64,000 bases of DNA from Alphaproteobacteria bacterium (GTDB lineage: Bacteria > Pseudomonadota > Alphaproteobacteria > JACZXZ01). Both the position numbers and the translations under genes were made by a program. This document shows, piece after piece, positions 1 through 37,392 of this stretch (positions are counted from its first letter, which is position 1; each line of letters starts with the position of its first letter). The DNA is taken from NCBI GenBank assembly GCA_052143835.1, contig JBKQRV010000093.1:69387-133386 (forward strand). The letters run 5' to 3'. The notes under the pieces were generated by a model that was given only the letters and a program-made list of their open reading frames with translations, had not been told where the DNA came from and did not search any database.

Positions 1-1959
1 CTGCGCCTTGCCCCCGAGCAGGTCGTCTGGTTCGGTCCCGGCGATTCGCGCGACTACCTGCTCTATGCGCTCGCCCGGCTCGCCCACAGCGACGTGTCCT
101 TCCTCGGGCCCATGCAGGAGGACCTGGTCCTCGAGATGCAGAAATGGTTCAGCGAGCACGGTCGCAGCATCGGTGTCGCCGCCTCTGATGTAACGGACGG
201 GTGGGAGACCGCGCGCGCGATCGAGGCCCTCGTGGACGAGCGCACCAATGCCTATTTCACCACCGGCAACGGCCTCGTGCAGCGGGCATTGCCTTTTCAG
301 GACGTTCCGGTCGCCTCCGCCTATGAGCAAAGCCTAGGCTATCTCTATTATCTGCTGTGGACCCGCTACGTCAGCGCGGGGCACGCGGCGGCCCAGTCGA
401 TCAACATCACCGGCCTGGAGGCGCTTTATCCGGAGCGGCTGGCGCTCCTCGGCGTGCGCTATGTCGTGGCCCGCGACAGCAAGTTCTACGAGCGGCCTCC
501 GCTCGAGCGGGTCATGGGCTGGCACGGCTACTCGGTCTATGCCTTGCGTGACCCGAATATCTCGGGGTACCGCGTAAGCGGGATCGAGTTCGGCGACACG
601 CTCGCCGACGAGCTGAGGCTGATGCGGCGCCACGGCTTCGATCCGCGGCGGACGGCCGTCCTTCCCGCGAGCGAGCGAGGCTCTTTTGAGGGCTCGGCGG
701 GCCGAGGGGCGGGAACTTTGCAAAGCTCGTCGGTCCGACTGGCGCCGAGCGAGCTGATCTTCTCGGCGAAGAGTTCGGAAGGGCAAAGTCTTGTCGTGCT
801 GCCGTTCAACTGGTCGAGATGCTGGCGGCCGGAGTGGCGTCGCGGAGCGGGTCATCTTACCCGTGCGGACGTCGGGCTCATAGGCGTCGCTTTCGCGGGC
901 GACGTCGAGCTGCATTTGAGCTGGACGGCCGGTTACGGCCGAGGGCGGGCGTGTCTGAAGGAGGATGCGGGGTTGGTCAGCGCGGCAAAGCAAGCCGCGA
1001 GCGAGGTCGGCTTCGCCGAGGCATACGAGCCGTTCGACGAGCATTCCCCGCCCTTTGCCGTGGAGCGGCTGACCTTCGCACGTGACAACGACATGGTGGC
1101 GGAGCGCGAGGCTGCGAGGCGCGGCGACATCGAGGCCGCCGTTCCCGCTTACGTCGCCGCGTCGCTTTCGCAAGATGAGCGCGACGGCCGCAGCTGGTCT
1201 CAAGCGGTCGATTGGCGGTTCACGAGGAGCGGGGAGGGCTATGAGTTCTCGGGCCGAAACGGTGGCGGCGCGAGCCTCGTGGTCCTGCCGCTCGCCTATT
1301 CCTATTGCTGGCGGGCCGCCTGGCAGGGACCGGCCGGCGAGCTCGTGCCGGTCGACCGGGATTGGCTTGGCGTGCTCTTCCGAGAGGCGGCCGCGTTGAG
1401 GCTCGATTTTGCATCAGAGGCTCCCGAGGCGGGCTGCTCGCGCCAGGACCGCATAAGGCAGACGGTCTCCGATCTGCTCGACCAAATCGGCGGGAGGACG
1501 GCCGGCGGGCGCTATGCGCTCGGCGAAACGGTCCGCTTTGGCATCGGCGGCGACGCGGAGGCTTATATGACCTCAGGATGGTCGGGACCTGAGGCCTGGG
1601 GGCGATGGTCGGTGGGCAGGACCGCACAACTTGTCCTAAGGGTCGATCCGCCGTCCTCGGGCGACCTGCAATTGGACGCGGTCGTGGGCGCCCTCATCGG
1701 CGGCGCTCGGCAGTCCGTATCGGCGACGATCGCCGTCAACGGCGTCACGGTCGGCGAGTGGCATTTTGCCGGCGGTAGCGGACCCGCCCCCAGGCAAGTC
1801 ATCGTGCCGCGCCATCTGGTGAGCGGAACGGGCGACATGGTCGTCGAGTTCACGGTCGACGATCCCGTGTCTCCCGCGGCGCTCGGCATGTCGAGCGATG
1901 AGCGCGAGCTCGGACTGAGCTTCGCGAGCCTTGCGGTGAAGGCCGCGGACAAGCATTAG
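1..1959 (+). CDS. 5'-truncated paralog (type A) of the giant membrane-protein family; only the C-terminal soluble region is present. It has two YfhO-C-like beta repeats and one GW-PE-WG module.
   Basis: The reading frame is open from nt 1 with no stop, so the gene continues upstream of the window. It aligns at about 65-70% aa identity with the C-terminal 640 aa of ORFs 13798..17472 and 20488..24156. Shared stretches include LVLEM, VPVASxYEQSLGYLYYLLWTRYVSAG, VVLPFNWSxCW and GWSGPEAWGRWSVG. Confidence 0.8.
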   Translation: MRLAPEQVVWFGPGDSRDYLLYALARLAHSDVSFLGPMQEDLVLEMQKWFSEHGRSIGVAASDVTDGWETARAIEALVDERTNAYFTTGNGLVQRALPFQDVPVASAYEQSLGYLYYLLWTRYVSAGHAAAQSINITGLEALYPERLALLGVRYVVARDSKFYERPPLERVMGWHGYSVYALRDPNISGYRVSGIEFGDTLADELRLMRRHGFDPRRTAVLPASERGSFEGSAGRGAGTLQSSSVRLAPSELIFSAKSSEGQSLVVLPFNWSRCWRPEWRRGAGHLTRADVGLIGVAFAGDVELHLSWTAGYGRGRACLKEDAGLVSAAKQAASEVGFAEAYEPFDEHSPPFAVERLTFARDNDMVAEREAARRGDIEAAVPAYVAASLSQDERDGRSWSQAVDWRFTRSGEGYEFSGRNGGGASLVVLPLAYSYCWRAAWQGPAGELVPVDRDWLGVLFREAAALRLDFASEAPEAGCSRQDRIRQTVSDLLDQIGGRTAGGRYALGETVRFGIGGDAEAYMTSGWSGPEAWGRWSVGRTAQLVLRVDPPSSGDLQLDAVVGALIGGARQSVSATIAVNGVTVGEWHFAGGSGPAPRQVIVPRHLVSGTGDMVVEFTVDDPVSPAALGMSSDERELGLSFASLAVKAADKH

Positions 1960-2370
1960 GCCGCGAAAGACCCTCTCCTTGCGCGCATATTGACGGTCCG
2001 CTTGCGCTCTGCCAAGCTGCCCCGTTGGTCTGATGCGGGCGGCTCCTCGAAGGAAGACGGTCGGGCGGAAAGTCGACTTGAGGATGGACCGCGAGGCAAA
2101 TGCACGACGAGGCGCCGGCTTGGCAGCCGCAGCGCCCTCCAAGAACCATCGCTCCCCTCGCAATCTCCTCTGTTTCGGGCTCATGTGCATCTCGCCGGCA
2201 CTACGGTCCGTTTTACATGCTGCGAATCACGATCGCATCGTCTACCACGATAGTTGCCTGGCTAACTTACCGATGATGTTCGCGGTCGCGAAGAACATTA
2301 GGTGCGCCGGCATGCCCGACTTGCTCGGGGGATCGATGAACGGCCGACCAACCCCTTTGCGGAACTGACC

Positions 2371-5300
2371 ATGGACGGGACCGCTCGCCGATCTGACCGT
2401 TCCTGGCAGCTCGCACTGGCGATTCTCTACCTCGGATTCTACGCTTGGATGCTCGTCGCCGGCCACGGCATGCCATATGTCATGGATGCCAACGAGTCCT
2501 TCTCGATCTTCTGGCACGCTTATAATCTTTTTCATTTCAATATCGGAGACTCGCTGGGCATTACGGACGAGTCCTTCAGCCCGCACGCCGCGGCACATCC
2601 CTATCTTTACACCCACCAAGGCAATTTTCCGCGTCTTTTCGGCTTTCTGATCTATGTGCTCGGCGCGCGCACCATCCAATCCCAGGTGGTGGCAACCACG
2701 GCAATCGTCGGGACGGCGGCGCTCGTTCTCGCCTACCGCTATTTCGCACGGATCGCCGAGCCCCGCTTTGCCGTGATCTATTGCGCACTTCTGGCGACCG
2801 ACTACGTTCTCTATGGGCAGTGGCACGTTGTGACGGACCGCGTCTGGTCCGGGCTTTTCGTTTTCGCGCTCTTGAGCTGTCTGCACGATGCGGGGGGCGA
2901 GCGGCGGCGTCGAGCGCTCGCGTTCCTCTTCTTGATCGGAGCCGGTCTGTTCTACAACGAGCTGGCGTTCGCCGGAATGCTGTCGATTGCCGGCGCGCTT
3001 TACGCCGTCATGATGTTCTGGCGGCGCCCGGCGTTGGCGCTAAGCGCGATCGCGAGCTTTGTCGCAGGCGGGCTCTCGGCCTTGACAATCTTGTTCGCTC
3101 AGTTGAGCGCGCGCTTCGGCACCAGTGCCGTCTTGACGGATCTCTTCTATACCTTCGCCGCCCGCAACTTCGCCGACGACCCGGCCGGTCGCGAGGCTGT
3201 CCGCTCGTTCTTCGAGACGCACAAGATCGCCTTTTGGCCGCAATACGTCAACGGCGACCTCTATCGCAATCTCAAGGAATTCATTTTCTCCCTCAGCCAC
3301 TACGACCTGCAAGTCTACACGCCGATTTTCTGCCTGGTCACGGGGCTGTTGCTCGCGGGATGGGGTCTCGGGGCCGCCCGCACCAAATCTGCAATGCTCG
3401 AGCCGTCGGCGGAGCGCGTGCGGAACGACCCACCGCAGGCCCGATCGCCCGGACAGCGCGCGACCGACCTTGTTCTCCTCATTCATCTCGCGGGCGCGCT
3501 TTTTCTCGTCCTGCGGCCGATCGCGATTGGCGAGGGCGTGTTCGCGCTCTATCCGGCATCCGTTGCGCGTGGCGGTGCGCCGACGGGCCTTCACGTCTCG
3601 CCGGGAACGATCGTCGCCGCGCTGGCCGCGATCGCCGGCGCATTGTCGATCGTCAAGGCGAGCACTGGAAGCTGGTGGGCGACGACCCGGCTGTCGCCCT
3701 GGGCGGCGTTGAGGCTGTTGGCGCTCCTCATCGTGACGGGGGCCGCCCTGGGTTGGCAAAGACTGCTCTATCAGGGCGGCGGAGGGGGGGAACTCGCTGA
3801 CATCTGGATGGTTCCGCTAGCGGCACCCTGGGCGCGAACCGCAGCGCGTTTGGCCGTGGCAACCGCCCTCGTCGTGGCGATCTTCATGGCAATGGGCGGC
3901 GAACGCGCACTCATCGCACGCTCATGTAAAGACATCTTCGCGCGGATCGCACGCTTCGTCATCGCCGGGCTCGCCGGCTACGCCGTGGTCTATTGGCTAT
4001 CGCCGGGCATCGTCTTGAGCGGCTTTCAGTGGCGTTATGCACCCTTCGTCGTCTTTTTCCTTTGTGCGGTGCCGGCCTCGGCGTTCTATCTGCTTGTTCT
4101 CGCAACGGGGCGGCTGCGCGCCGTCTGGCATGAGGGGCATGCCGGCGAAACCGCGATGAGCCTTGCCGCGGCGGGCTTGCTGTTGGCAGGGCTCAGCTAT
4201 TGGGTCGGTCTGCAGCTGAGCTATGTGCGGCTCTTGCCGCCTGACCATGGCAGCTTCTTCCGGCGGCTCGCCGCCCCGCCTTTCCGCGGCCACAGCTTCG
4301 TCGCCAACAGCTACACCGCGCCGCTGACGGCTTTCACCGACGAGTGGGGGTACGCGGATACCGTGATCGGCAAGGGCGGCGTCGTGCTGACCTCGGAGGG
4401 CTATGTGCTTCATCGTGATATGCGCTCCTACCTCTGGTTCGCGGACCGGGGCCGCAATCCCGCCTATGCCTTCCCGGACTTTTATGCATGCTTCGTGCAG
4501 CAGAACCTCGCCAGCGCTGCGGCGCGACGCGTGGCGAAACAGCACGGCTGGCAACCCGCCGGGGGCTGTTCGACGTTGCCGCTCATTGCCGAGGCCGGCC
4601 GGCCGGGCGCGGTGCTGCGCAATGAGGTGGTCGCCCGCGATGCGCCGGATCGCGACTATTGGGCGGTGATCCGCCTCGATCCGGACTACCCGCCTTTCGT
4701 GCGCACGCTTGAAGCGGCGGTGCAAGCGGATGGAGCCGGCGGGCATCGGGTCGTCTACAGCGCCGCCGCCGGGCAGCAGCAGGGCAAGCCCTTAGTGTCC
4801 CCACTCGCCGAACTCGTGGCCATGCCAGGGGACAGCTCGTGCAAGCTCGATCCTAGGCACCTCGTGACGCTGGCCAAGAGCGAGGACGGCGCGCCGTTTC
4901 CCCTGCCGCCCGATTTCACAGGCACGCTCGCATTGCGCTACACGCCGCGCACGGCCACGCGAGCCGGCCAATCGGTGCTTTCGCGACCGTGGCGAGTGAC
5001 GCCGGCCGGAGCCGAGCCTTGCCCCTGGCCGACCGTCGATTACAGCTTCGCCGAGTCTGGCTCGTCGTCGACGTGGCTGTTGGACGGCTGGGGCGATCCC
5101 GAGCCCTGGGGTACTTGGACGGTCGGGCCGGCGGCGCGGCTCGTGCCGGATATTCACACGCTTCCCGACCACGGATTGGTGCTGACGATCATGGCTACAC
5201 CTTTCGTGACGCCGGTGCATCCCTCCGTCGAGGCTTCGCTCCAGGTCAACGGTGTGGCTGTCGGGCACCTGGTTTTTGCTCTCGGTCTTCCCGATCGGCC

Positions 5301-5925
5301 CCGCTCAGTTTTCGTTCCGAGGGCGGCATTGGAGCGCAATATGCCGCCCGAAGTACGTCTTGTCATAACGGATCCGGCATCGCCGCTGGCGCTCGGCATG
5401 TCTTCCGACGAAAGGCTGCTTGGGTTGGGACTGCGCCGGATGCAGTTGGCCGAGGGAGTGGAGCAGCCGGCAATGCTCGTCGAGCCGGGCGAGGATCTCG
5501 ATTTCTCGGCCGGCGGCCATGCCGTCGCGGCCCTGGGAGAGGGATGGATCGCGGCCGAGCCCAGGGGGAGCTGGAGCATTGGCCACACCGCGGACATCCG
5601 GTTCAGGCTCGCCCACCCGATCGGCGGCGATGCAGTGCTGCGGATCGTGGGCGCACCCCTCTTGGCCGCGCGCCGCACCACGGCCTCGGTCGACCTCGCT
5701 GTCAACGGCAGCGCCGTTGGCTCGATCCAGTATCGCCTCGGCGAACAGGAGAGCGAACGGGTTATCAAGATCCCCGGCGCGGCTTTGGCACAGTCGGCGC
5801 AATCGGTGGTCTCGCTTACCCTGCACATGTCCGACGCGAGATCGCCGAAGGAGCTCGGCCTTTCCGACGATCCGCGCCCTTTGGGGTTCTTCCTGCGCCG
5901 GCTGCGGCTCGATCCTGTGCAGTGA
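2371..5925 (+). CDS. Giant polytopic membrane protein (type B). It has an N-terminal domain of about 600 aa with 12 or more TM segments, a periplasmic-type soluble region, and two tandem GW-x2-PE-x-WG-x-W-x-G modules at the C-terminus.
   Basis: ORF 2302..5925. ATG at 2371 (MDGTARR) is preferred over the upstream alternative start. Hydrophobic helices run through about aa 640. The two module copies are GWGDPEPWGTWTVG...SPLALGMSSDERLLGLGL and GEGWIAAEPRGSWSIG...SPKELGLSDDPRPLGFFL. Confidence 0.75.
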   Translation: MDGTARRSDRSWQLALAILYLGFYAWMLVAGHGMPYVMDANESFSIFWHAYNLFHFNIGDSLGITDESFSPHAAAHPYLYTHQGNFPRLFGFLIYVLGARTIQSQVVATTAIVGTAALVLAYRYFARIAEPRFAVIYCALLATDYVLYGQWHVVTDRVWSGLFVFALLSCLHDAGGERRRRALAFLFLIGAGLFYNELAFAGMLSIAGALYAVMMFWRRPALALSAIASFVAGGLSALTILFAQLSARFGTSAVLTDLFYTFAARNFADDPAGREAVRSFFETHKIAFWPQYVNGDLYRNLKEFIFSLSHYDLQVYTPIFCLVTGLLLAGWGLGAARTKSAMLEPSAERVRNDPPQARSPGQRATDLVLLIHLAGALFLVLRPIAIGEGVFALYPASVARGGAPTGLHVSPGTIVAALAAIAGALSIVKASTGSWWATTRLSPWAALRLLALLIVTGAALGWQRLLYQGGGGGELADIWMVPLAAPWARTAARLAVATALVVAIFMAMGGERALIARSCKDIFARIARFVIAGLAGYAVVYWLSPGIVLSGFQWRYAPFVVFFLCAVPASAFYLLVLATGRLRAVWHEGHAGETAMSLAAAGLLLAGLSYWVGLQLSYVRLLPPDHGSFFRRLAAPPFRGHSFVANSYTAPLTAFTDEWGYADTVIGKGGVVLTSEGYVLHRDMRSYLWFADRGRNPAYAFPDFYACFVQQNLASAAARRVAKQHGWQPAGGCSTLPLIAEAGRPGAVLRNEVVARDAPDRDYWAVIRLDPDYPPFVRTLEAAVQADGAGGHRVVYSAAAGQQQGKPLVSPLAELVAMPGDSSCKLDPRHLVTLAKSEDGAPFPLPPDFTGTLALRYTPRTATRAGQSVLSRPWRVTPAGAEPCPWPTVDYSFAESGSSSTWLLDGWGDPEPWGTWTVGPAARLVPDIHTLPDHGLVLTIMATPFVTPVHPSVEASLQVNGVAVGHLVFALGLPDRPRSVFVPRAALERNMPPEVRLVITDPASPLALGMSSDERLLGLGLRRMQLAEGVEQPAMLVEPGEDLDFSAGGHAVAALGEGWIAAEPRGSWSIGHTADIRFRLAHPIGGDAVLRIVGAPLLAARRTTASVDLAVNGSAVGSIQYRLGEQESERVIKIPGAALAQSAQSVVSLTLHMSDARSPKELGLSDDPRPLGFFLRRLRLDPVQ

Positions 5926-6111
5926 GGGGCGGCAGTCGCATGTGAGCGGAAATCAATTACGTTGGGCTGGCGAGACGTTTCATGGTTCCCGCTCCAGTCC
6001 ATTGACGGGTCAGCTACCCTCTGCCAAGTTGGCTCGATCCGGTACAGGCGATTTTTATTTGGAGCGAGTTGCGATCGCGGGCGGGAGTATAGACGAGCGA
6101 CACTTGAGTTA

Positions 6112-8640: not shown

Positions 8641-8996
8641 GACGCGTGCGAATGCCTCGGATTTGATCGAGATGCCGCAGTTCGAGTATGGACGAGCGAT
8701 TTCGGCAAGCGTAAAAGAGCGCCGGCAATCTCCTTACCCGATTTGCAGCGGCTGGACGAGAGGGTACGACATGGACGACCAAGAGGCATGAGGATAGTGG
8801 GCGCATCGAGCCTGAGCGGCGATCCTCCAATGACGAGCCAATTCAGCGCTGGGCGTCTTTGTTGTCCATGATTTTGCCAGGCCCAATCTCGGCCCTTCAA
8901 CGCATCATGAGAGGACTGCGTGCGCCTTGGCCGGCGATCGGCGGTCGGTTGCCGAGCGTGGCATCGGCATCGCCTCGGTCGTTGGCGTGGGACCGC

Positions 8997-13745: not shown

Positions 13746-13803
13746 GAGGCACCGCGCGGCGTCGGGCGCGCAGCACGGCCTCGCTCGGACCCAAACCTTG
13801 GCA

Positions 13804-16800
13804 ATGCAACGGCTCGGCATGGGAAAGCGGATTGCGGGTTTCGCGGGTGCGCTTGCATCGCGCGGATGGGCCTTTGCGCCGGCACTTCTGCTGGTGCTTG
13901 CCTTCAACCTCTATTGGTACGGCGCTTTTCTATCGTTCCCCGTGTTCGGGGAAGATGCGGCGTCGCTGTTGTACGTTCTGCTCGACACGATCAAGGGCGG
14001 CCACCTGGCAACCATAGGCTATCCGATGAATTGGTCGGAAGGCCTGGGACAGCCGAATCTCTTCATAACCTTCACCTTCGACCCTTTCGCTTGGGTGATG
14101 CTCCTGCCGCTCGACCCGGCCGATTGCTATCGCATTTCGATGGCGCTTCGTGCCACGGCAGCCTGGGCAGCGGGTTATTGGTTCTGCATCGTGTTGTTTC
14201 GCGGCCGGCCCATGGTCGCGATGTTCTCTGCGACGCTGTACATCCTGATCGGCTTCATTCTTACGAGCGCATGGGGCACCTATATCTGGGCCGGCATGTT
14301 CAATGCGACGCACGCGGCAATTTTTCCGCTTCTGGGAGCCTTTGCTCTCTTGATCATGCGGAGCCCGCGCCGCATAGGCATCGCGGACCTCTGTTTTCTT
14401 GTCTCGGTATTCTTCTTCATCCTCGATTATCCGGTCGGATCTCTGATCGGCATAGCCGTGTTCCTGACTTTCGCCGGCGCCGCAGCGCTTCTGGCACGCC
14501 CAGCCGAGCGCCGGACCGCAATTTGGGGATTCGCCAAAATCGCAGCAATGGTCGCTATCCTCCTTTTTGCTCCGCCGCTTCACATTTTCTCGTCGTGGAC
14601 GGCGCTCATACAGGGATCGGCGCGAGTGGTGTTTTCCGGCGAGCTGTTTGCATACGGCAACAGTCATGTGCCGCCGCTCATGTGGACGCGATCGCCCTGG
14701 GCTCTCAGAGTGTGCATCCTGGTCGGTTTGTCGGTGTTATTGCTCAACCGGCGTTGGCCGCGCCCGCTCCGAGTGCTTGCTGCCACCCTCTTCCTGGTGG
14801 TTGGCGGAGTGCAGCTCTTGGCACTTGTGAAGTATCTCGGGCTTGACGCTGGGCTCGTGGACCGTCTTCCGCGACTTCACTATTTCGAATTCTACTCGCC
14901 GCTTTTTTATGCTGCATGCGGGGGCTTCGCGTTGAGTCACTGGCGGGATGTCGCCTTTCCGGGCCTCGCTGATCGGCGGCATCTGCACGCGTGGACGTTA
15001 CGGACGATCATGTTCCTGGCAATCGCGCTCTACATCCTGCCGACGATCGTCGTTGTCGTTTCCGGCATTCTTCTGATCGTCGCGCACGCCTGGCTGCGCC
15101 GGGAGAGAAAAGGTGTTCGCAGCGTGGTGTCGCCGGTGGGGGGTCGTCTTGTTGCCCGTGCCGTTTTTGTGGCGCTCATCGCCGCCGCGATCGGAACTTG
15201 GCTGCCTCCCAGTGAGAAGATCTATCCTATCTTCTACGCCGAGAGCCGCTGCCGAGACGGCGTGCTTTGGTGCCGCGACCCGCCGGGCGCCACGATGGCT
15301 GTCGGCGACAATCCGATTACGCAGTACTTGCGGCGGGCCTTGAGCGCGGATGAGCATTTCTCCGGGCGCGCCGAGACTTGGGTCAGGCCGCCCGTCCGGA
15401 TCGGCCTTTATGCGCAAGTGGACATGCGGTGGACGGACGAGCTGTTCGCGCGCCTTCATGCATGGTACGCGCGGGCTTACGAAGCTCAAGTCATAAAGGG
15501 CTCGTCGGAGGACGATCTCTTCCGGCTTCCGCCGCAGCGAGTCGATTGGGACCGCCGCCAGTATCTGCTGGACACCCTTGCGAAATTCGCCCGCGGCGAC
15601 CTTCCGTATAACGGCCCGGCCCAGGAGAACCTGGTGCTCGAGATGCGCGACTGGATCGTCAGGCGCGGCCAGATGTTCGGCTTATTCGTAAAGGACTTCA
15701 CCGATCCGTGGCAGGGCATTAACTCCGTCCAGGCCGTCACCGAGGAACGTACGGCTGCGTTTTTCGCCACGGGAAATGGCCTCTTGCTACGAGCAATGCC
15801 GTTTCAGGGCGTTCCTGTCGCGTCGTCCTACGAGCAGGCGCTCGACTATCTTTATTATCTCTTCTGGACTCGGTATGTCAGCGCCGGTCAAGCAGCGTTC
15901 AAATCCATCAACATGACCACTTTGGAGGCACTTCATCCGGACCGCCTTGCGCTTGCGGGAATACGCTTTGTCGTGGCCCGCGACAGCAGCGCTTACGAAG
16001 CTCCTCCCCTCGAGCGGATCATGAGCTGGCAAGGGTATTCGATCTATGCGGTGCGGCATGCGAACGTCGCAGGCTACGCGGTAAAGAATCTCGAGTTCGG
16101 CAATACGCTGACCGAGGAATTGCGCCTGATGCGCCACCATGGTTTCGATCCCCGGCGTACCGCCGTACTTCCGGCGCGCGCGCGCCGTTCGTTTGCGGAC
16201 TCTACATTCCACGCGCCGGGGATGCTGGCGAGTTCATCCATCAGGTTGGCGCCAAACGAATTGACCTACTTGGCGAGGGGTTCCGGCGGTCCCGTTTTTG
16301 TCGTGCTGCCGTTTAACTGGTCGCATTGCTGGCAAGTGGAGTGGCGCAGGGGAACCGGAAATCTCACCCGCGCCGACATCGATCTGGTGGGAGTCGCCTT
16401 CGAGGGCGACGTCGAGCTGCATCTGCGTTGGACCGCCGGCTATGGCGCGCGTAGCCAGTGTCTCGGCGAGGATCAGACGCAGATCCCCGAGGCAAAGCGC
16501 GCGGCGGCCGCGGTCGGATTCGGCCAGGCCTATGAGCCGCTCGATCGGGATTTTCAACCCTTCGCCGCCGCGCGGCCTCGCTTTGCCGCCGACGCAGTCG
16601 ATGAGCGCGAGTTAGAAAGGAGATCCGATTACAGTAGCGGCAACGAAATGGTGGTGCCGAGCAGCGTGGTGGCGCTGCTGTCGAACGACGAGCTCTATGG
16701 GGGGGCGTGGACGACGTCGGTTTCCTCGGAATTCCGCCGGGACAACGGGGAGTACGAGCTCGTTGCCACGAACGACGGGGGTGCAAGCCTCGCGGTCTTG

Positions 16801-17472
16801 CCATTGCGGCATTCTTACTGTTGGCAGGCGGAATGGCGGGGCAAGGCCGGCGCCCTCCTCCCGGTCGACGCGGACCGGCTTAGCGTGCTGTTTCGCGGAT
16901 CCACATCGGTGCGGCTTCTCCTTCCGCCCGCGGACGAGCGCTCGAGCTGTGCGCTGCGCGACCGCGCGCGCGCGGCGGTTTTTGATTTTCTCGCGAACGA
17001 CCCTGTCAAGTCCGACGCGGCTCGCTACCGTCTCGGCGAGGCCATCGCCTTCGGCAGCGGGGGAAACAGCGAGTCCTTCACGGTGGAGGGATGGGGGCAG
17101 CCGGAAGCCTGGGGCCGATGGTCGCTTGGCTCGACCGCCAAGCTCGTGTTGAGAACGAATCCGCCGCCGACCGGTGATCTGATACTCGACGCATCGGTCG
17201 GTGCTCTACTCGCCGGAAGCCGGCGATTCGCGCGTGCGACGATCGTCGTCAACGGCGTCGAGGTCGGCAAGTGGGAGTTTCGTCCCGAGGATACGCCCGG
17301 GCGCCGTCAGGCAACCGTGCCGCGGGATTTGGTGGCGGATATCGGAGTGATGGTAATCGATTTCAAGGTCGACGAGCCCGTCTCGCCCGCCGAGCTCGCA
17401 GTGTCGCTCGATACTCGGCGCCTTGGCCTCAGTCTGCAAAGACTCACTGTGAGAGCCGCCGACAGCTATTAG
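13804..17472 (+). CDS. Giant membrane protein (type A, about 1220 aa). It has an N-terminal polytopic domain of about 450 aa, a large soluble region with two YfhO-C-like repeats, and one C-terminal GW-PE-WG module.
   Basis: ORF 13798..17472 has TTG at 13798 and ATG at 13804. It is paralogous to 20488..24156 over its full length and to 1..1959. The module is GWGQPEAWGRWSLG...SPAELAVSLDTRRLGLSL. Confidence 0.75.
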   Translation: MQRLGMGKRIAGFAGALASRGWAFAPALLLVLAFNLYWYGAFLSFPVFGEDAASLLYVLLDTIKGGHLATIGYPMNWSEGLGQPNLFITFTFDPFAWVMLLPLDPADCYRISMALRATAAWAAGYWFCIVLFRGRPMVAMFSATLYILIGFILTSAWGTYIWAGMFNATHAAIFPLLGAFALLIMRSPRRIGIADLCFLVSVFFFILDYPVGSLIGIAVFLTFAGAAALLARPAERRTAIWGFAKIAAMVAILLFAPPLHIFSSWTALIQGSARVVFSGELFAYGNSHVPPLMWTRSPWALRVCILVGLSVLLLNRRWPRPLRVLAATLFLVVGGVQLLALVKYLGLDAGLVDRLPRLHYFEFYSPLFYAACGGFALSHWRDVAFPGLADRRHLHAWTLRTIMFLAIALYILPTIVVVVSGILLIVAHAWLRRERKGVRSVVSPVGGRLVARAVFVALIAAAIGTWLPPSEKIYPIFYAESRCRDGVLWCRDPPGATMAVGDNPITQYLRRALSADEHFSGRAETWVRPPVRIGLYAQVDMRWTDELFARLHAWYARAYEAQVIKGSSEDDLFRLPPQRVDWDRRQYLLDTLAKFARGDLPYNGPAQENLVLEMRDWIVRRGQMFGLFVKDFTDPWQGINSVQAVTEERTAAFFATGNGLLLRAMPFQGVPVASSYEQALDYLYYLFWTRYVSAGQAAFKSINMTTLEALHPDRLALAGIRFVVARDSSAYEAPPLERIMSWQGYSIYAVRHANVAGYAVKNLEFGNTLTEELRLMRHHGFDPRRTAVLPARARRSFADSTFHAPGMLASSSIRLAPNELTYLARGSGGPVFVVLPFNWSHCWQVEWRRGTGNLTRADIDLVGVAFEGDVELHLRWTAGYGARSQCLGEDQTQIPEAKRAAAAVGFGQAYEPLDRDFQPFAAARPRFAADAVDERELERRSDYSSGNEMVVPSSVVALLSNDELYGGAWTTSVSSEFRRDNGEYELVATNDGGASLAVLPLRHSYCWQAEWRGKAGALLPVDADRLSVLFRGSTSVRLLLPPADERSSCALRDRARAAVFDFLANDPVKSDAARYRLGEAIAFGSGGNSESFTVEGWGQPEAWGRWSLGSTAKLVLRTNPPPTGDLILDASVGALLAGSRRFARATIVVNGVEVGKWEFRPEDTPGRRQATVPRDLVADIGVMVIDFKVDEPVSPAELAVSLDTRRLGLSLQRLTVRAADSY

Positions 17473-17561: not shown

Positions 17562-18356
17562 TCACCAGCTGCGCGATAATCGCCGAGCGAGAATTCGGAA
17601 AAGGCTGTGGCCGACCGATACGAAATTGCGTAGGCGCAAAGCCTTCGACCCTGGCGACGCGGTCGCTGGCAGGACGAGCTCTTTGTAGCTAGCTCCTTCT
17701 CCCACCAGACGTGTAATGAGCTCGGCCTGGAATCCGAATCCGGTCGACTCGACGGCAAAGCGCATCACCTGCCACCGTCGGTAGGCGGGAAATCCGTTGT
17801 AGTACTCGATCCTGATCCCCGAGATCTTATTGACAAGCCAGGTGTATAGGCGGGACAGGCCCTTACGGAGCACGCCGCGCCCGCGCACGTCGCGATAGAC
17901 GGGGATGATGATGTCTGCCTCGCCAAGACTGCGCATGATTGCGTCATGCGCCTCGGGCAACTCGTAGTTATCCCCGGCGACCGCACGGTAGTACGTGCCC
18001 TTCCCAAGGAACGCGCAGTCGGTGAAGTTGCGGCCGAGACCGCGATTTCGGGGCAGCGTAATTAGTCGTATGTTCAGCTCGGGATGCCTCCCTTGGTAGG
18101 TGCGGACGACCTCGCTAGTCCGGTCTGTTGAACAATCGTCGAAGACGATCACCTCGATTGTCGTGCCGGTGCGCCGCGATGCGGAAAAGACGTTCTCAAG
18201 GGCATTGACCACATGCCCCTCCTCATTGAGGCACGGCATGAAGACGGTCAGCTCGATGGGCCACTCGCCCCCCAAGGCCTCTTCGAGAATCCGATCCACC
18301 TCGAGTCCTCTCTCCCAGCCACCTGCAAGAGACGCCTCACGCGGCCTATGTCGCAC
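17562..18356 (-). CDS. Family 2 glycosyltransferase of the DPM1/ArnC/CsbB-like polyprenyl-phosphate sugar synthase type.
   Basis: IELTVFMPCLNEEGHVVNALENV...VIVFDDCSTDRTSEVV is a GT2 A-type fold with a DxD-like FDD motif. The likely start is GTG at 18356. Confidence 0.7.
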   Translation of the reverse strand: MRHRPREASLAGGWERGLEVDRILEEALGGEWPIELTVFMPCLNEEGHVVNALENVFSASRRTGTTIEVIVFDDCSTDRTSEVVRTYQGRHPELNIRLITLPRNRGLGRNFTDCAFLGKGTYYRAVAGDNYELPEAHDAIMRSLGEADIIIPVYRDVRGRGVLRKGLSRLYTWLVNKISGIRIEYYNGFPAYRRWQVMRFAVESTGFGFQAELITRLVGEGASYKELVLPATASPGSKALRLRNFVSVGHSLFRILARRLSRSW

Positions 18357-20487: not shown

Positions 20488-23400
20488 GTGCGGCGAACCA
20501 CACTGACCCCCTATCTCGACAACCTTGTCCGCCTCGTCGCCTCGGACCGGCGCGCTTTTCCGCTCGCTCTCCTGCTGGTGCTGGCGTTCAACCTCTTCTG
20601 GTACGGTGCCTTCCTGTCGTTTCCGCTCTTCGGCGAGGATGCGGGAGCGCTATTCTCCAACCTCCTCGAGACGATCAAGGACGGCCAGCTCGCGACCACC
20701 CATTTCCCCATCAAATGGCTCGAGGGCCTGGGGCAGCCCAATCTCTTCGTCACCTTCACCTTCGATCCGTTCTCGTGGGCGATGCTGCTGCCGCTCGAGC
20801 AGGCGGATTCGTTCCGCCTCTCGATGGCGCTGCGCGCGAGCGCGGGTTGGCTCAGCAGCTACTGGTTCGTGCTCGTGCTTTTTCGCGGCCGGCGCGGCGT
20901 GGCGCTGACCGCGGCGACGCTCTATCTCCTTGTCGATTTCACGCTCATGAACGCGTGGGGAATTCATACTTTCGCCGGCATGTACAACGCGACCCATGCC
21001 GCGCTGTTTCCGCTCCTGCTGGCGCTCGCCCTTCTCGTCATGCGCAGCCGGCGCTGGCTCGGGCCTGCCGATCTCGCCCTTCTCGTCGCGCTGTTTTTCT
21101 TTCTGCTCGATTACCCGATCGGCTCCCTGATCGGCACCTGCGTGCTCCTCGCCTACACGGTCGTGGCTCTCGGACTGACGCGCCCAGCCGAGCGCGCGGC
21201 CGCCGTGCGGGGCCTTGCGAAAATCGTGGCGATGGTGGCGATTCTGCTGCTGGCGCCGCCGCTTCATGTTCTCGCGTCATGGTCGGCGCTGCTGCAGGAT
21301 TCAGCCCGAACAGTCTTTCCCGGCGAGCTGTTCGCTTACGGATATGACTATGTGCCACCGGTGATGTGGGCGCGGACGTCACCCGCTTTGCGCGCCTGCA
21401 TTCTCCTTTGCCTGTCGGTGCTGCTGTTCAATCGGCGCTGGCCGCGCCCCTTGCGCATGGCGGTCGGAACCCTGCTCATAGTAGTCGGTGGCGTGCAGCT
21501 CGCCGCACTCGCCAAGTATCTGGAGTGGGCCCCGACGCTCATCGACCGCCTGCCGCGCTTCCAGTTTTTCGAGTTCTACGCCACGCCCGCTTATGCGGCG
21601 TGCGGTGGCTTCGCGCTCTATTACTGGCGGGACCTGCTGTTTCCGCGCCTGGCGGGGAGGCGGCGCGTCGTGTCGTGGCTGCGGGGTGCCATCCTTTTCT
21701 TCCCTCTCGCCGTCGTCGTCTTGCCGCTTGGGGCGGTTGCGGTCGGCACCTATGCGCTCCTCGCCATCGTCGCGCGCGCGCGCGGCGAGGCTCAGCGCGC
21801 CGACTGGACGGCGTCGCCCGCATCGCAGCGTCTGGTTGCGCGGGCGGCCCTGATCGCGCTCGTGTTGGCCGCGGTCGGGGCCTGGCTGCCTCCGACCGCG
21901 TATATTTATCCCATTTTCTATCTCTACGGCCGTTGCCAGACCGGCCTCTTTTGGTGCCGCGACCCGGCCGGCGTGACGATGGGCATGGGCGACAATCCCA
22001 TCACCCGATATCTGCGCCGGGCGCTCGGCGGGGAAGGGCCGTTCGCGGGGCGCGCGGAGACCCTCGTCAGGCCCCCCGTTCGGTTCGAGCGCGCGCCTGC
22101 GGGGGAAATCAAATGGACGCCCGAGCTCTATGACCGCCTCCACCGGTGGTACGCGCGCGCGTACGACGCATTGGCCGACAAAGGCTCACCCACCGGCGAT
22201 CCCTTTTGGCTGGCGCCGCAGGATTTCACCTGGGAGGCGCGCTGGCCGCTCCTGGTGGCGCTGGACAAATTCGGCCACGGCGACGTGGAGTTCGACGGTC
22301 CCTCCCAGGAGGATCTGATCTTGGAGATGCACAAGTGGTACGACGAGGAGGGCCGCAAGTTCGGCCTGCTTGCGCGCGACTTCATGGACCCATGGGAGGG
22401 CATGCTCTCGGTTACTGCCGCCGTCGATGAGCGGAACGCGGCGTTCTTCGGTACCGGCAATGGCCTCATGATGCGGGCATTGCCGTTCCAGAATGTTCCG
22501 GTCGCCTCCTCGTACGAGCAGAGCCTCGGCTATCTCTATTATCTGCTGTGGACGCGCTACGTCAGCGCCGGCCAGCGCGGGTTCAAGTCCATCAATATGA
22601 CCAGCCTGGAGGCGCTCCACCCGGAACGGCTGGCGCTCTTGGGCGTGCGTTACCTGCTCGCGCGCGACAGCAAGGTCTACGAGCGGCCGCCGCTTCCGCA
22701 CGTCATGAGCTGGAACGGCTATTCGATCTATGAGGTGCCCGGTGCGAACGTCGCCGGTTACGGCGTGAGCGGGGTCGAGTTCGGGAGCACCTTGACGGAC
22801 GAGCTGAGGCTCATGCGGCGACATGGCTTCCACCCGAGAGACACGGCCGTACTGCCCGCGAGCGAGCGCACTTCATTCGAGGGTAGGCCGGCCCGAGCTT
22901 GGGGCACCTTGCAGAGCTCAGCGATCACCCTCACGCCCGGCGAGTTGACGTTTACGGCCGTCGCTTCCGGCGGAGAGAGTTTCGTCGTGCTGCCGTTCAA
23001 CTGGTCGCATTGCTGGCAGGCCGAGTGGCGTAAGGGATCCGGACGCTGGAGCCGCGCGGATGTCGATTTGATCGGCGTCGCCTTTACGGGCGAGATCGAG
23101 CTGCATCTACGGTGGACGGCAGGCTACGGTTCCGCGAGCGCCTGCTTGCGCGACGACCGGAAACAGATCGCCGAGGCAAAGCGCGCGGCGGCCGAGATCG
23201 GCTTCTCACAGCCCTACGAGCCTTTCGACGGCCGCTCGCCGCCCTTCGCCGCGGTCCGGCCGCGCTTCGCCGCGGATGCGGTCGAGGCGACGGTGCTGGA
23301 GCTGAAGTCGATGTACCAGAGCGGCGACGAGGTAGTGGTGCCCATTTCCGTCAAGCAGTTGCTGTCGCCCGCCGAGCTCGATGGCAGCGCCTGGTCGACG

Positions 23401-24156
23401 GGGGTCAACTCGGATTTTCGGCCGAGCACGGACGGGTACGAGCTCGTGGCGCGCAATGAGGGTGGCGTGAGCTTATTGGTCTTGCCGGTGCCCTACTCGA
23501 CCTGCTGGCAGGCGGAGTGGCAGGGAAGCCCCGGCGCCCTCGTCCCCGTCGACGAGAGCTGGCTCGGCGTGCTGTTCCGCGGCGCGGCTGCACTCCGGCT
23601 TCGTCTCCCGGCCGAGGCTGCGCAGGCAAGCTGTGCCCAAGCGGACCGCGCGCGGGAGCGGATCGTCGATCTCCTCAAAGGCGACGCCGGCAAAATCGTC
23701 GGTGGACGCTATACAATCGGCGACACCATCAAGTTCGGAGCCGGCAGCGGCTCTGAATGGTACACGACGCGGGGATGGTGGGGCGCTGAGTCGTGGGGAA
23801 GATGGTCGGTCGGCGACGACGCGCGGCTGGTCCTGCGGCTGGGGGCACCGCCGCCGGGCGACCTGGAGCTCGATGCGGATTTGACGGCTTTGATTCTGCC
23901 CAATCGACCGGAAGTGCGGGCGACGGTGCGCGTCAACGGGATGAAGCTCGCCGTGTGGGACTTCCGTGCCGATAACACGCCCGGCCGACGCCAGGCCATC
24001 GTGCCGCGCGACTTGGTGGCGGATGCGAGGGTGATGATCGTCGATTTCCGGATCGACCATGTGGCCTCGCCGCTCGAGCTCGGCGCTTCGAGCGACAAGC
24101 GGCCCCTGGCACTCGGCTTCCGCAGCCTGACCGTGCGCGTCGCGGGGGCCCATTAG
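20488..24156 (+). CDS. Giant membrane protein (type A paralog, about 1220 aa).
   Basis: The start is GTG at 20488. It is collinear with 13804..17472: AFNL(Y/F)WYGAFLSFP(V/L)FGED, NRRWPRPLR, VPVASSYEQ(A/S)L(D/G)YLYYL(F/L)WTRYVSAG. The C-terminal module is GWWGAESWGRWSVG...SPLELGASSDKRPLALGF. Confidence 0.8.
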   Translation: MRRTTLTPYLDNLVRLVASDRRAFPLALLLVLAFNLFWYGAFLSFPLFGEDAGALFSNLLETIKDGQLATTHFPIKWLEGLGQPNLFVTFTFDPFSWAMLLPLEQADSFRLSMALRASAGWLSSYWFVLVLFRGRRGVALTAATLYLLVDFTLMNAWGIHTFAGMYNATHAALFPLLLALALLVMRSRRWLGPADLALLVALFFFLLDYPIGSLIGTCVLLAYTVVALGLTRPAERAAAVRGLAKIVAMVAILLLAPPLHVLASWSALLQDSARTVFPGELFAYGYDYVPPVMWARTSPALRACILLCLSVLLFNRRWPRPLRMAVGTLLIVVGGVQLAALAKYLEWAPTLIDRLPRFQFFEFYATPAYAACGGFALYYWRDLLFPRLAGRRRVVSWLRGAILFFPLAVVVLPLGAVAVGTYALLAIVARARGEAQRADWTASPASQRLVARAALIALVLAAVGAWLPPTAYIYPIFYLYGRCQTGLFWCRDPAGVTMGMGDNPITRYLRRALGGEGPFAGRAETLVRPPVRFERAPAGEIKWTPELYDRLHRWYARAYDALADKGSPTGDPFWLAPQDFTWEARWPLLVALDKFGHGDVEFDGPSQEDLILEMHKWYDEEGRKFGLLARDFMDPWEGMLSVTAAVDERNAAFFGTGNGLMMRALPFQNVPVASSYEQSLGYLYYLLWTRYVSAGQRGFKSINMTSLEALHPERLALLGVRYLLARDSKVYERPPLPHVMSWNGYSIYEVPGANVAGYGVSGVEFGSTLTDELRLMRRHGFHPRDTAVLPASERTSFEGRPARAWGTLQSSAITLTPGELTFTAVASGGESFVVLPFNWSHCWQAEWRKGSGRWSRADVDLIGVAFTGEIELHLRWTAGYGSASACLRDDRKQIAEAKRAAAEIGFSQPYEPFDGRSPPFAAVRPRFAADAVEATVLELKSMYQSGDEVVVPISVKQLLSPAELDGSAWSTGVNSDFRPSTDGYELVARNEGGVSLLVLPVPYSTCWQAEWQGSPGALVPVDESWLGVLFRGAAALRLRLPAEAAQASCAQADRARERIVDLLKGDAGKIVGGRYTIGDTIKFGAGSGSEWYTTRGWWGAESWGRWSVGDDARLVLRLGAPPPGDLELDADLTALILPNRPEVRATVRVNGMKLAVWDFRADNTPGRRQAIVPRDLVADARVMIVDFRIDHVASPLELGASSDKRPLALGFRSLTVRVAGAH

Positions 24157-26143: not shown

Positions 26144-26373
26144 CTCCCCAACGGCTCTCCTTGGTAACGCTCTCGGCAATGGAATGTCCGATGCGGTTCA
26201 GTATAGGTGGTCGTTCTCCGCTTGGAAAAAGCTTGTTCCTTGACACGGTAGCAAAAGCTCGTCCTTGCGAGGTGGGAATTCCACTTGGCTCAATTCTTCC
26301 TCTCATCTGGTGCCCGAGCATGAGGCAGAACGGGCGCTCGACAAGAAGCATCCCGCGTGCGCAGCCGCCCGCG

Positions 26374-34478: not shown

Positions 34479-34905
34479 CCGCATCGGCGTCCGCCTCGCC
34501 GGCGCCTTCGGCAAGGAGCTCGCGGCCCGCGGCATAACATTGCCCATGTGGCGCGTGCTGGCCGCGTTGCGCCACAGCGGCGGCCAACGCGTGGGCCGGC
34601 TCGCCGCGGCGACCTCGATCGAGGTCTCCACCCTCTCGCGCCTCCTCGCCCGGATGGAGCGCCGCGGCCTCGTTCGCCGCGAGCGGGGGAGCGAGGACGC
34701 GCGGAGCGTCCTCGTCGAGCTCACCCAGGCGGGCGCCCGCCTCACCCAAAGGATCATCCCGCGCGCGCTTCACTACGAGGAGGTGGCACTCAGGGATTTC
34801 AACCGGGCGGATGCCGAAGCGCTCAAGGAGATGCTGGTGCGGGTCTACGACAATATCGGCGCGCTCGAGGAGGAGGGCCGGGAGAAGGCCCGGCGGAGCG
34901 CCTGA
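34441..34905 (+). CDS. MarR-family transcriptional regulator.
   Basis: The wHTH region is LPMWRVLAALRHSGGQRVGRLAAATSIEVSTLSRLLARMERRGLVRR. Its start overlaps the LLM 3' end by about 38 nt. Confidence 0.7.
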   Translation: MFDLASYLPYLVNRIGVRLAGAFGKELAARGITLPMWRVLAALRHSGGQRVGRLAAATSIEVSTLSRLLARMERRGLVRRERGSEDARSVLVELTQAGARLTQRIIPRALHYEEVALRDFNRADAEALKEMLVRVYDNIGALEEEGREKARRSA

Positions 34906-34999
34906 GCCGGCGCGGACGGCGCAGCAAAGCGGTTTCCGTGCCCGGCAAGGTCGAGTAGACTTGGCTTTCGCCGCTGCCAAGACATCAGGGAGGATAACG

Positions 35000-36166: not shown

Positions 36167-36189
36167 AGCGTGCCTCAGTGCCCACTCTC

Positions 36190-36345: not shown

Positions 36346-36465
36346 CCGAGTACCAGCACGACCCTATCGCGCTTGCGCGAGAGGGTGGCCGCAAAGCGGC
36401 CGGGTGAGGGAGCGTCCCGGCTTCGCCCATTCATGCTCTAGCATGCTCTAGACAAGGTGCTGTCG

Positions 36466-37389: not shown

Positions 37390-37392
37390 GCC

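What the first reader, a model, noticed from the sequence alone, without database searches (positions are those of the whole stretch)
4990..5925. Recurrent C-terminal module of about 150 aa with signature GW-x2-PE-x-WG-x-W-x-G ... VNG-x-x-VG ... SP-x-x-LG-x-S-x-D-x-R-x-LG
The module occurs once at the C-terminus of each type-A paralog (about 1500-1959, 16990-17472, 23680-24156) and twice in tandem in type B (about 5040-5440 and 5500-5925). It is predicted soluble and periplasm-facing.

Its conserved aromatic-rich GW/PE/WG/W core resembles a carbohydrate-binding module, but I cannot assign it to a named family from sequence alone.

It may target the membrane enzymes to a specific glycan, analogous to Wzt C-terminal domains.
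Basis: seen in the sequence. Interest (0 to 1): 0.75.

Follow-up and report, generated by a model that had tools for sequence, protein, structure and literature searches.

The report
DUF7024 jelly-roll modules on glycosyltransferases
The repeated 150-residue tail on four large membrane enzymes is real, but it belongs to an already catalogued, functionally unstudied domain family (Pfam DUF7024, first seen at the end of E. coli OpgB) whose predicted shape and enzyme partners suggest, without proving, that it holds sugar polymers.

Summary
Five copies of a ~150-aa module lie at the reported places: one at the C-terminus of each of three type-A paralogues and two in tandem in type B. A profile finds no other copy in the six-frame translation.

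The module does have a name. It is a divergent member of Pfam DUF7024 (PF22895), whose archetype is residues 616-759 of E. coli phosphoglycerol transferase OpgB. Two isolated type-A copies pass Pfam's cut-off. The type-B copies are missed by Pfam but match a strict DUF7024 core profile (hhalign 97.7%, E 1.8e-12).

The family is large: 12,286 representative proteins at E<=0.001. In the best 148 hits the module is nearly always C-terminal, usually in arrays of 2-7. Its partners are glycan-handling enzymes: sulfatase-type transferases, GT4, GT2, AlgX, GT-C.

Best reading: a non-catalytic tether for the acceptor glycan. Binding is inferred, not shown. Verdict: a new member of a known, uncharacterised family, of moderate interest.

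The parts
5017..5466 (+). Type-B module 1 (aa 906-1055 of ORF 2302-5925): divergent DUF7024 beta-jelly-roll domain
   Evidence: Module HMM i-E 1.1e-64. 33% identical to module 2 and 28-34% to the type-A copies. No Pfam hit on its own. hhalign against the strict DUF7024 core set gives probability 91.5%.
5467..5922 (+). Type-B module 2 (aa 1056-1207): second tandem DUF7024-like domain, ending at the stop codon 5923-5925
   Evidence: Module HMM i-E 3.9e-61. No Pfam hit on its own. hhalign against the DUF7024 core gives 91.7%. It matches the type-A module at 99.7%, E 1.9e-25.
1504..1956 (+). Module of the first type-A paralogue (its ORF is cut by the left window edge)
   Evidence: Module HMM i-E 4.3e-72. 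Pfam DUF7024 24.6 bits against a cut-off of 24.4 when scanned alone.
17017..17469 (+). Module of the second type-A paralogue; this is the sequence modelled with AF2
23701..24153 (+). Module of the third type-A paralogue
   Evidence: Module HMM i-E 5.4e-70. Pfam DUF7024 only 12.9 bits. hhalign against the DUF7024 core gives 96.3%.
2302..5925 (+). Type-B host protein: about 11 predicted TM helices, a ~270-aa soluble region, then two modules. The likely true start is the ATG at 2371.
   Evidence: Translation. Kyte-Doolittle TM scan. No Pfam family for the body. Homologues P0034, P0127, P0070 and P0099 all carry two modules.
13798..17472 (+). Type-A host protein (NCBI ACLQME_11540): GT-C fold glycosyltransferase, AftD-like, followed by two beta-rich units and then the module
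20488..24156 (+). Type-A paralogue (ACLQME_11555)
   Evidence: 59% identical to 13798-17472 over 1206 aa. P0008.
1..1959 (+). Type-A paralogue truncated by the window edge (ACLQME_11520)
   Evidence: The frame is open from nt 1. 55-57% identical to the other type-A proteins. P0012.

Best explanation
Each copy is a divergent DUF7024 domain, a ~150-residue beta-jelly-roll. It most likely acts as a non-catalytic glycan-binding module.

In this locus it is fused to the extracytoplasmic C-terminus of polytopic glycosyltransferases: type A, which is GT-C and AftD-like, and the unrelated type B. The locus is a ~33-kb polysaccharide assembly cluster of an uncultured alphaproteobacterium.

Proposed mechanism: cytoplasmic GT2/GT4 enzymes and a sugar-nucleotide epimerase/dehydratase would supply lipid-linked sugars. 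The membrane enzymes would add residues to the growing polymer on the periplasmic face. The C-terminal module (one in type A, two in type B) would hold the acceptor polymer close to the active site, raising local substrate concentration and possibly selecting the epitope to be extended. This is what has been proposed for the CBMs of AftD, EmbC and C. youngae ORF12.

Shown here: the domain's presence, its homology to DUF7024/OpgB, its CBM-like predicted fold, the GT-C fold of type A, and the family's restriction to glycan-handling partner enzymes.

Inferred: periplasmic location, glycan binding, and the tethering role.
For: - Homology to DUF7024. Isolated type-A copies score 26.6 and 24.6 bits against a gathering cut-off of 24.4. 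E. coli OpgB residues 616-759 score 220 bits and carry the same G.S.PE.WGRWS ... R.LG motif. All five copies match a strict DUF7024 core profile at 91.5-97.9% probability, and the type-B module profile at 97.7%, E 1.8e-12.
- A sequence bridge to a bona fide CBM family. One family member (P0036, module 1) passes Pfam's cut-off for CBM60 (39.8 bits against 28.2) on the same stretch that hits DUF7024.
- Partners. Across 87 scanned representative proteins the partner domains are Sulfatase, GT4, NTP_transf_5, AlgX, GT2, DUF6311, PMT_2, TMEM260-like and GH57. Nearly all have recognised roles in glycan synthesis or modification.
- Stand-alone forms. Some proteins consist only of a lipoprotein signal peptide plus two modules, which fits a binding function rather than a catalytic one.
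- Multivalency. Tandem arrays of 2-7 copies are the rule, as with multivalent CBMs.
- Modularity. Distant type-A homologues lack the module, so it behaves as an accessory domain.
Against: - No member of DUF7024 has a demonstrated ligand. No paper in the library mentions the family.
- Similarity to CBMs is at fold level only: 5-17% identity and TM-scores of 0.43-0.55. The same jelly-roll also occurs in non-lectin proteins found in the same searches: reelin repeats, Cry toxin domain III, ephrin receptors and a viral turret protein.
- No window copy hits any Pfam CBM model, even at E<=10.
- I could not inspect model coordinates. Whether the conserved W26/E30/W35/N79/D132/R134 residues form a surface site or a structural core/Ca2+ site is therefore unknown.
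- AftD also contains a purely structural beta-sandwich.
Confidence: 0.55

Rival explanations
1. The module is a structural beta-sandwich that binds no ligand. It would serve as a spacer, ruler or stabilising domain that projects or rigidifies the enzyme's soluble part.
For: Arrays of up to 7-8 copies resemble Ig-like stalks. AftD has one beta-sandwich described as structural. The most conserved residues (W, G, P, and a D/R pair) could all be structural. Removing the CBM of ORF12 did not abolish its activity.
Against: A spacer would not be expected to partner so consistently with glycan-handling enzymes on both sides of the membrane. It would also not be expected to occur as stand-alone lipoproteins made only of modules. 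The nearly invariant polar residues E30, N79, D132 and R134 lie in loops, which is unusual for a pure spacer.
Confidence: 0.2
2. The module is a protein-protein docking domain. It would bring the paralogous membrane enzymes of the cluster, or their partners, together into one assembly complex.
For: Four enzymes of one cluster share the module although their bodies are unrelated. Jelly rolls also mediate protein recognition, as in ephrin receptors, lambda gpJ and Cry toxins.
Against: The copies within the cluster are only 28-56% identical. The family occurs in very different systems, and in E. coli OpgB, which is known to act also as a soluble proteolytic fragment. No common protein partner is evident.
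Confidence: 0.1
3. The module binds a non-glycan envelope ligand, such as phospholipid head groups or the membrane surface, and so positions enzymes that use lipid-linked donors.
For: The archetype OpgB and the sulfatase-type partners take head groups from phospholipids. The GT-C enzymes use polyprenyl-phosphate sugars.
Against: Soluble GT4, methyltransferase and nucleotidyltransferase partners also carry the module. In type A the module is the most distal domain, after ~600 soluble residues. The fold neighbours are overwhelmingly glycan binders.
Confidence: 0.07
4. The repeat is a compositional or chance artefact of a GC-rich sequence.
For: None beyond the high GC content.
Against: HMM i-E values are 1e-61 to 1e-72, with only five hits in six frames. 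There are 12,286 homologous representative proteins. The AF2 model is confident.
Confidence: 0.01

Closest known systems
Pfam DUF7024 (PF22895); archetype: C-terminal domain of E. coli phosphoglycerol transferase I OpgB/MdoB, residues 616-759
   Same: - Homologous: Pfam hits above the cut-off for two copies, and hhalign 91.5-97.9% for all five.
- Same length (~145-150 aa).
- Same C-terminal position on an envelope glycan-modifying enzyme.
- Same PE.WG.W hairpin and R.LG last-strand motif.
   Different: - Here the host is a GT-C-type or other polytopic glycosyltransferase, not a sulfatase-fold phosphotransferase.
- The window copies have an extra VNG..VG hairpin segment that is shorter in OpgB.
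- The type-B copies fall below Pfam's detection.
- The function of DUF7024 is unknown, so membership does not supply a mechanism.
Periplasmic CBMs of mycobacterial GT-C arabinofuranosyltransferases AftD (PDB 6WBX) and EmbC
   Same: - A GT-C membrane enzyme followed by beta-sandwich modules in the extracytoplasmic C-terminal region.
- The AftD and EmbC modules bind the acceptor polymer.
   Different: - The module profile finds no AftD or EmbC chain in the PDB sequence search.
- AftD's modules are internal and tightly packed, and they are not DUF7024.
- Binding has not been tested here.
C-terminal CBM (residues 503-652) of Citrobacter youngae ORF12, founding GT136 GT-C enzyme (PMC11127046)
   Same: - A single ~150-aa beta-rich C-terminal module on a periplasmic-face GT-C enzyme of a polysaccharide cluster.
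- It was shown to bind the unmodified acceptor O-polysaccharide and is dispensable for basal activity.
   Different: - It is described as immunoglobulin-like.
- I could not obtain its sequence, so homology to DUF7024 is untested.
- A plasmid said to carry a related system (NZ_CP032687.1) gave no tblastn hit to the module.
CAZy CBM6/CBM35/CBM36/CBM60 (also CBM22 and CBM29) beta-jelly-roll carbohydrate-binding modules
   Same: - One DUF7024-family member also passes the Pfam CBM60 threshold.
   Different: - 5-17% identity.
- No window copy matches any CBM Pfam model.
- Those CBMs sit on glycoside hydrolases that degrade plant or algal polymers, not on biosynthetic enzymes.
- The ligand-binding and Ca2+ residues could not be compared.
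Wzt C-terminal carbohydrate-binding domain of O-antigen ABC transporters
   Same: - A beta-sandwich appended to a polysaccharide-assembly protein that recognises the nascent glycan.
- The cytoplasmic GT4-linked DUF7024 arrays could play a comparable role.
   Different: - Wzt's domain is cytoplasmic, fused to a nucleotide-binding domain, and reads a chain-terminating cap.
- Here the host is a membrane glycosyltransferase, with the module inferred to be periplasmic.

Membership tests
Pfam DUF7024 (PF22895) | Score at or above the curated gathering cut-off (24.4 bits) against the family HMM | tested here: inconclusive
   Scanned as isolated domains: 17017-17469 scores 26.6 bits and 1504-1956 scores 24.6 bits (both pass). 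23701-24153 scores 12.9 bits, and both type-B copies give no hit (these three fail). In the full-length proteins the scores drop to 19.5-20.6 bits.
Pfam DUF7024 (PF22895) | Homology to the archetype (E. coli OpgB 616-759) over the whole domain | tested here: met
   OpgB scores 220 bits to DUF7024. hhalign of each window copy against the core set (OpgB, P0003, P0146 x3) gives probability 91.5-97.9% over 109-129 columns. The type-B module profile gives 97.7%, E 1.8e-12 over 131 columns.
Pfam DUF7024 (PF22895) | C-terminal accessory domain of envelope or glycan enzymes | tested here: met
   All five copies end within 0-1 residue of the stop codon. Family-wide, the last module ends at or near the C-terminus in most of the 148 proteins examined.
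CAZy/Pfam CBM6, CBM35, CBM36, CBM60 | Sequence match to the family model | tested here: not met
   No CBM model is hit by any window copy at E<=10, nor by the 32 diverse modules at E<=0.01. Only the remote member P0036 hits CBM60, at 39.8 bits.
CAZy/Pfam CBM6, CBM35, CBM36, CBM60 | Beta-jelly-roll (galactose-binding-domain-like) fold | tested here: met
   [not shown]
CAZy/Pfam CBM6, CBM35, CBM36, CBM60 | Demonstrated carbohydrate binding, with a Ca2+ or aromatic binding site | not testable with these tools
The conserved residues W26, E30, W35, N79, D132 and R134 are candidates only.
GT-C glycosyltransferases with extracytoplasmic CBMs (AftD/EmbC/ORF12 type) | Host enzyme has the GT-C fold | tested here: met
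   [not shown]
GT-C glycosyltransferases with extracytoplasmic CBMs (AftD/EmbC/ORF12 type) | Module is homologous to the AftD or EmbC CBMs | tested here: not met
   A profile of 32 modules against all PDB chain sequences at E<=10 finds only LecB, at E 0.19-0.53 (not significant). No AftD or EmbC chain is found.
GT-C glycosyltransferases with extracytoplasmic CBMs (AftD/EmbC/ORF12 type) | Module lies on the periplasmic side | tested here: inconclusive
   Supporting but indirect evidence: a K/R-rich loop (5 of 9 residues) precedes the last TM helix; cysteines are invariant in the soluble region (C461/C468; C707/C824); and there is the analogy to AftD. No topology predictor or experiment was available.
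Wzt-type C-terminal CBD | Fused to the nucleotide-binding domain of an O-antigen ABC transporter | tested here: not met
   The hosts are polytopic membrane proteins with no ABC_tran domain. The only ABC ATPase in the window (38680-39792) lies outside the glycan cluster, close to (about 2.5 kb downstream of) a periplasmic-binding-protein gene.

The most novel reading that the evidence does not exclude
DUF7024 is a very large carbohydrate-binding-module family (at least 12,000 clusters at 50% identity) that, as far as I could tell, is absent from the CBM families checked here. It would be dedicated to biosynthetic and modifying enzymes rather than degradative ones, and used on both faces of the membrane. 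In the cytoplasm, arrays on multi-GT4 polymerases would hold the nascent lipid-linked chain. In the periplasm, the modules on GT-C enzymes, AlgX-type acetyltransferases and OpgB/LtaS-type head-group transferases would hold the acceptor polymer. The conserved W-E-W...N...D-R loop cluster would be the glycan or Ca2+ site. If so, the unexplained C-terminal domain of E. coli OpgB would be the OPG-binding element.
Probability: 0.45. Interest if true: 0.55.

Novelty: new member of a known kind. Interest (0 to 1): 0.38.

Why it matters
If the module binds glycans, it gives a handle on substrate recognition for a whole set of 'dark' polysaccharide-assembly enzymes. The window alone holds seven large polytopic proteins with no Pfam hit above the curated cut-off when scanned whole.

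It would also explain a domain of the classical E. coli enzyme OpgB that has no assigned role, and add a biosynthesis-associated family to the CBM repertoire. The hypothesis is cheap to test in E. coli.

If the module does not bind glycans, the finding is simply a correctly spotted but already catalogued domain of unknown function.

Tried and rejected
- **Word-indexed homologue searches with module profiles** returned only 3 and 13 proteins. The exhaustive representative search was needed.
- **PDB sequence searches** with the 5-copy and 32-copy profiles, and with OpgB, found no solved relative of the module. The weak LecB match (E ~0.2) was not pursued because it is not significant.
- **Foldseek against AFDB50** was unavailable, so annotated AlphaFold neighbours could not be listed.
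- **The search for related loci with the diverse module alignment** failed for lack of a conserved 7-10 column stretch.
- **ORF12 sequence.** I tried to obtain a C. youngae ORF12 homologue (BK026208.1, CP099034.1, CP032687.1) to test whether its proven CBM is DUF7024. Two records are not held. The third is a 577-kb plasmid that gave no tblastn hit to the module. The question is left untested.
- **Rejected: chance or compositional repeat**.
- **Rejected: recent duplication only**, since identities are 28-56%.
- **Rejected: type A and type B as paralogues of each other.** Only the module is shared.
- **Topology from simple TM counting** was ambiguous and is not relied on.
Full report

Yes. The window is GC-rich, about 59-70%, and carries four long + strand ORFs:
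- <1-1959, open to the left window edge
- 2302-5925
- 13798-17472
- 20488-24156

A motif search places GW..[PA]E..G.W, VNG and SP..L[GA].S.D.R.L[GA] five times, always in the last ~150 residues. It occurs once in each of the three 'type-A' proteins and twice in tandem in 'type B'.

My boundaries are nt 1504-1956, 5017-5466, 5467-5922, 17017-17469 and 23701-24153. The five copies align with almost no gaps and have 21 invariant columns.

Identity is 50-56% among type-A copies and 28-34% for every comparison that involves a type-B copy. BLASTP E-values between B and A copies are 3e-9 to 2e-21 at a notional database of 1e8 residues. An HMM of the five copies finds exactly these five domains (i-E 1e-61 to 1e-72) and no other significant match in the six-frame translation of all 64 kb.

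So the repeat is real, ancient rather than recent, and limited to these four genes.

**2. What carries it?**

The window matches a contig of an uncultured 'Alphaproteobacteria bacterium' MAG, locus tags ACLQME_11520/11540/11555, all annotated as hypothetical.

Nucleotides 1 to ~33,200 form a glycan-assembly cluster:
- three type-A paralogues and type B
- three further large polytopic ORFs with no Pfam family: 5962-8481, 8859-13745 and 24401-26179(-)
- GT2 genes, GT4 genes and a GDP-mannose-dehydratase-like epimerase

Type A and type B share nothing but the module. BLASTP shows only the module. Profile-profile comparison of the two families gives one hit, the module, at 99.7% probability and E 1.9e-25.

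Type-A relatives are rare. There are 24 proteins in the 5.8-billion-protein index and 8 loci in 185,579 species genomes, all MAGs. The close alphaproteobacterial orthologues keep the module. The ~40%-identical homologues from Methylomirabilota, Sulfurifustaceae and Betaproteobacteria end before it. All four type-B homologues carry two modules. The module therefore behaves as a mobile accessory domain.

**3. What is the module?**

- Scanned as isolated domains, two type-A copies pass Pfam's cut-off for DUF7024/PF22895 (26.6 and 24.6 bits against 24.4). The third is weak at 12.9 bits. The two type-B copies, which are the finding's own coordinates, are not detected.
- I fetched E. coli K-12 opgB (b4359). 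Its residues 616-759 are the archetype of DUF7024 (220 bits), following a Sulfatase domain. They carry the same 'G.S.PE.WGRWS ... R.LG' signature.
- Against a strict DUF7024 core profile (OpgB, P0003 at 103 bits, and three domains of P0146), each window copy scores 91.5-97.9% hhalign probability. The type-B module profile scores 97.7%, E 1.8e-12, over 131 columns.

All five copies are divergent DUF7024 domains, and Pfam's model under-covers the family.

**4. How big is the family, and what does it travel with?**

An exhaustive HMMER search of 1.84 billion representatives found 12,286 proteins at E<=0.001 and 5,562 at E<=1e-10.

In the best 148 hits the module is almost always C-terminal and repeated: 2 copies in 83 proteins, 3-4 in 55, and up to 7 (8 by the search's own count).

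Pfam scans of 87 of these proteins give the following partners:

| Partner | Proteins |
|---|---|
| GT4 | about 22 |
| Sulfatase | 12 |
| NTP_transf_5 | 10 |
| AlgX-type SGNH acetyltransferase | 6 |
| DUF6311 | 3 |
| Phosphodiest | 3 |
| GT2, PMT_2, TMEM260-like, GH57, a methyltransferase | 1 each |

- Nearly all of these partner families have recognised roles in glycan synthesis or modification.
- About a third of the proteins have no predicted TM segment upstream of the modules. These include giant proteins with two or three GT4 domains followed by 4-7 modules.
- One cultivated example is the 1790-aa Azospirillum brasilense 'glycosyltransferase' WP_137143736.1. It has four modules and lies next to heptose-nucleotide genes.
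- Some small proteins are just a lipoprotein signal peptide plus two modules.

The family therefore works on both sides of the membrane. 'Periplasm-facing' is not a family trait.

**5. Fold**

With a 32-sequence alignment, AF2 gives a very confident all-beta model: pLDDT 96.1, pTM 0.90, 11 strands. The same strand pattern recurs in the full-length model.

- Foldseek against the PDB returns CBM6, the CBM35 of cycloisomaltooligosaccharide glucanotransferase, CBM35, CBM36 and the carbohydrate-binding domain of BcsB. It also returns Cry-toxin domain III and lambda gpJ. E-values are 8e-5 to 2e-3 and TM-scores 0.43-0.55.
- No solved structure is a sequence relative.

The fold is the galactose-binding-domain-like jelly-roll typical of type B/C CBMs, but it belongs to no specific CBM family.

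One sequence bridge exists. Module 1 of P0036 passes Pfam's threshold for CBM60 (39.8 bits against 28.2) on the same stretch that hits DUF7024.

Across 266 non-redundant modules the most conserved residues are W35 (96%), D132 (97%), R134 (95%), P124 (89%), G25 (88%), W26 (82%), N79 (81%) and E30 (79%). The polar ones lie in loops.

From my own knowledge, CBM6/35/36 domains keep a structural Ca2+ between an N-terminal Glu and a C-terminal Asp. E30 and D132 could be the equivalent pair. I could not test this because model coordinates are not exposed.

**6. Most likely mechanism**

I favour a non-catalytic glycan-binding tether (confidence 0.55). In this locus the GT-C-type enzymes would add sugars from lipid-phosphate donors on the periplasmic face. 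The C-terminal module(s) would hold the acceptor polymer.

The periplasmic placement is inferred from three things:
- the AftD-like fold
- a K/R-rich loop before the last TM helix
- invariant cysteines in the soluble regions

Precedents exist:
- AftD has three periplasmic CBMs and binds long branched arabinans.
- EmbC's CBM is needed for efficient arabinan synthesis (as described in PMC11127046).
- C. youngae ORF12, a GT-C enzyme, has a 150-aa C-terminal CBM that binds its acceptor O-polysaccharide.

Not shown: any binding by any DUF7024 domain. No paper in the library mentions the family, and a recent survey of OpgB-type enzymes says nothing about its C-terminal domain.

Rivals:
- a purely structural or spacer sandwich (0.2)
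- a protein-docking domain (0.1)
- a lipid or membrane-surface binder (0.07)
- chance (refuted)

**7. Comparison and novelty**

- Membership in the DUF7024 superfamily is met by homology, although three of the five copies fail the Pfam threshold.
- Membership in CBM6/35/36/60 is met at fold level and not at sequence level.
- The AftD/EmbC CBMs are functional analogues, not homologues.
- Wzt's domain differs in host protein and in cellular compartment.

The finding is therefore a new, divergent member of a known but uncharacterised domain family, in a new host context (AftD-like GT-C enzymes and an unclassified polytopic protein).

Its value lies in the testable idea that DUF7024, including the orphan C-terminal domain of E. 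coli OpgB, is a large biosynthesis-associated CBM family. I score interest at 0.38. The most novel reading not excluded has probability ~0.45 and interest ~0.55 if true.

Noticed in passing
window 5962-8481 (+), 8859-13745 (+), 24401-26179 (-): Three more large polytopic membrane ORFs sit in the same cluster: 839 aa with ~11 TM helices, 1628 aa with ~22 TM helices, and 592 aa with ~8 TM helices. None has a Pfam family; there is only a 14.9-bit YfhO C-terminal hit on the first. None carries the module. The 1628-aa ORF looks like two polytopic halves (about aa 1-545 and 850-1380) joined by a ~300-aa K/R-rich loop, so it may be a fusion or a mis-joined pair.
   Followed up: partly
window 13798-17472, about aa 810-880 and 975-1040 (the same in the other type-A paralogues): There is an internal duplication upstream of the module. 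Two beta-rich units each contain a 'VLPFNWSHCWQ.EW' / 'VLPL..SYCWQAEW' motif with a conserved cysteine. The distant homologues P0023-P0027 stop after the first unit (~aa 905). The second unit and the DUF7024 module therefore appear to have been added together in the alphaproteobacterial lineage.
   Followed up: partly
L012 (Azospirillum brasilense MTCC4039 plasmid p5, NZ_CP032350.1 94582-99954): A 1790-aa 'glycosyltransferase' (WP_137143736.1) has no signal peptide or N-terminal TM segment and four DUF7024-like modules at aa 1082-1712. It lies next to rfaD, hldE and a SIS-domain gene (heptose-nucleotide synthesis). This is a cultivable organism in which a presumably cytoplasmic multi-module form could be studied.
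   Followed up: partly
L001 (ENA ERZ25039537 contig_98849, 76-20534): A related locus has the type-A gene split into several called genes of 602, 195, 821, 196 and 152 aa. The last one (P0001) is just the module. This is probably frameshift error in the assembly rather than a free-standing module gene.
   Followed up: no
window 17562-18356 (-): A small GT2 (264 aa) lies directly after a type-A gene. Its size and position would fit a polyprenyl-phosphate glycosyltransferase (GtrB/ArnC-like) that makes the lipid-linked donor for the GT-C enzymes. This was not tested.
   Followed up: no
window 34811-39792: The glycan cluster ends near 33.2 kb. Downstream genes are unrelated: a Peripla_BP_6 solute-binding protein and an ABC ATPase, then a short-chain dehydrogenase and a cupin protein.
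   Followed up: no
P0036 aa 938-999; P0030 aa 466-515 (representative-library proteins): Some DUF7024-family modules also hit other galactose-binding-like Pfam models above their gathering cut-offs: CBM60 at 39.8 bits and BetaGal_ABD2 at 29.7 bits. This hints that DUF7024 belongs in the same superfamily (clan) as these domains.
   Followed up: partly
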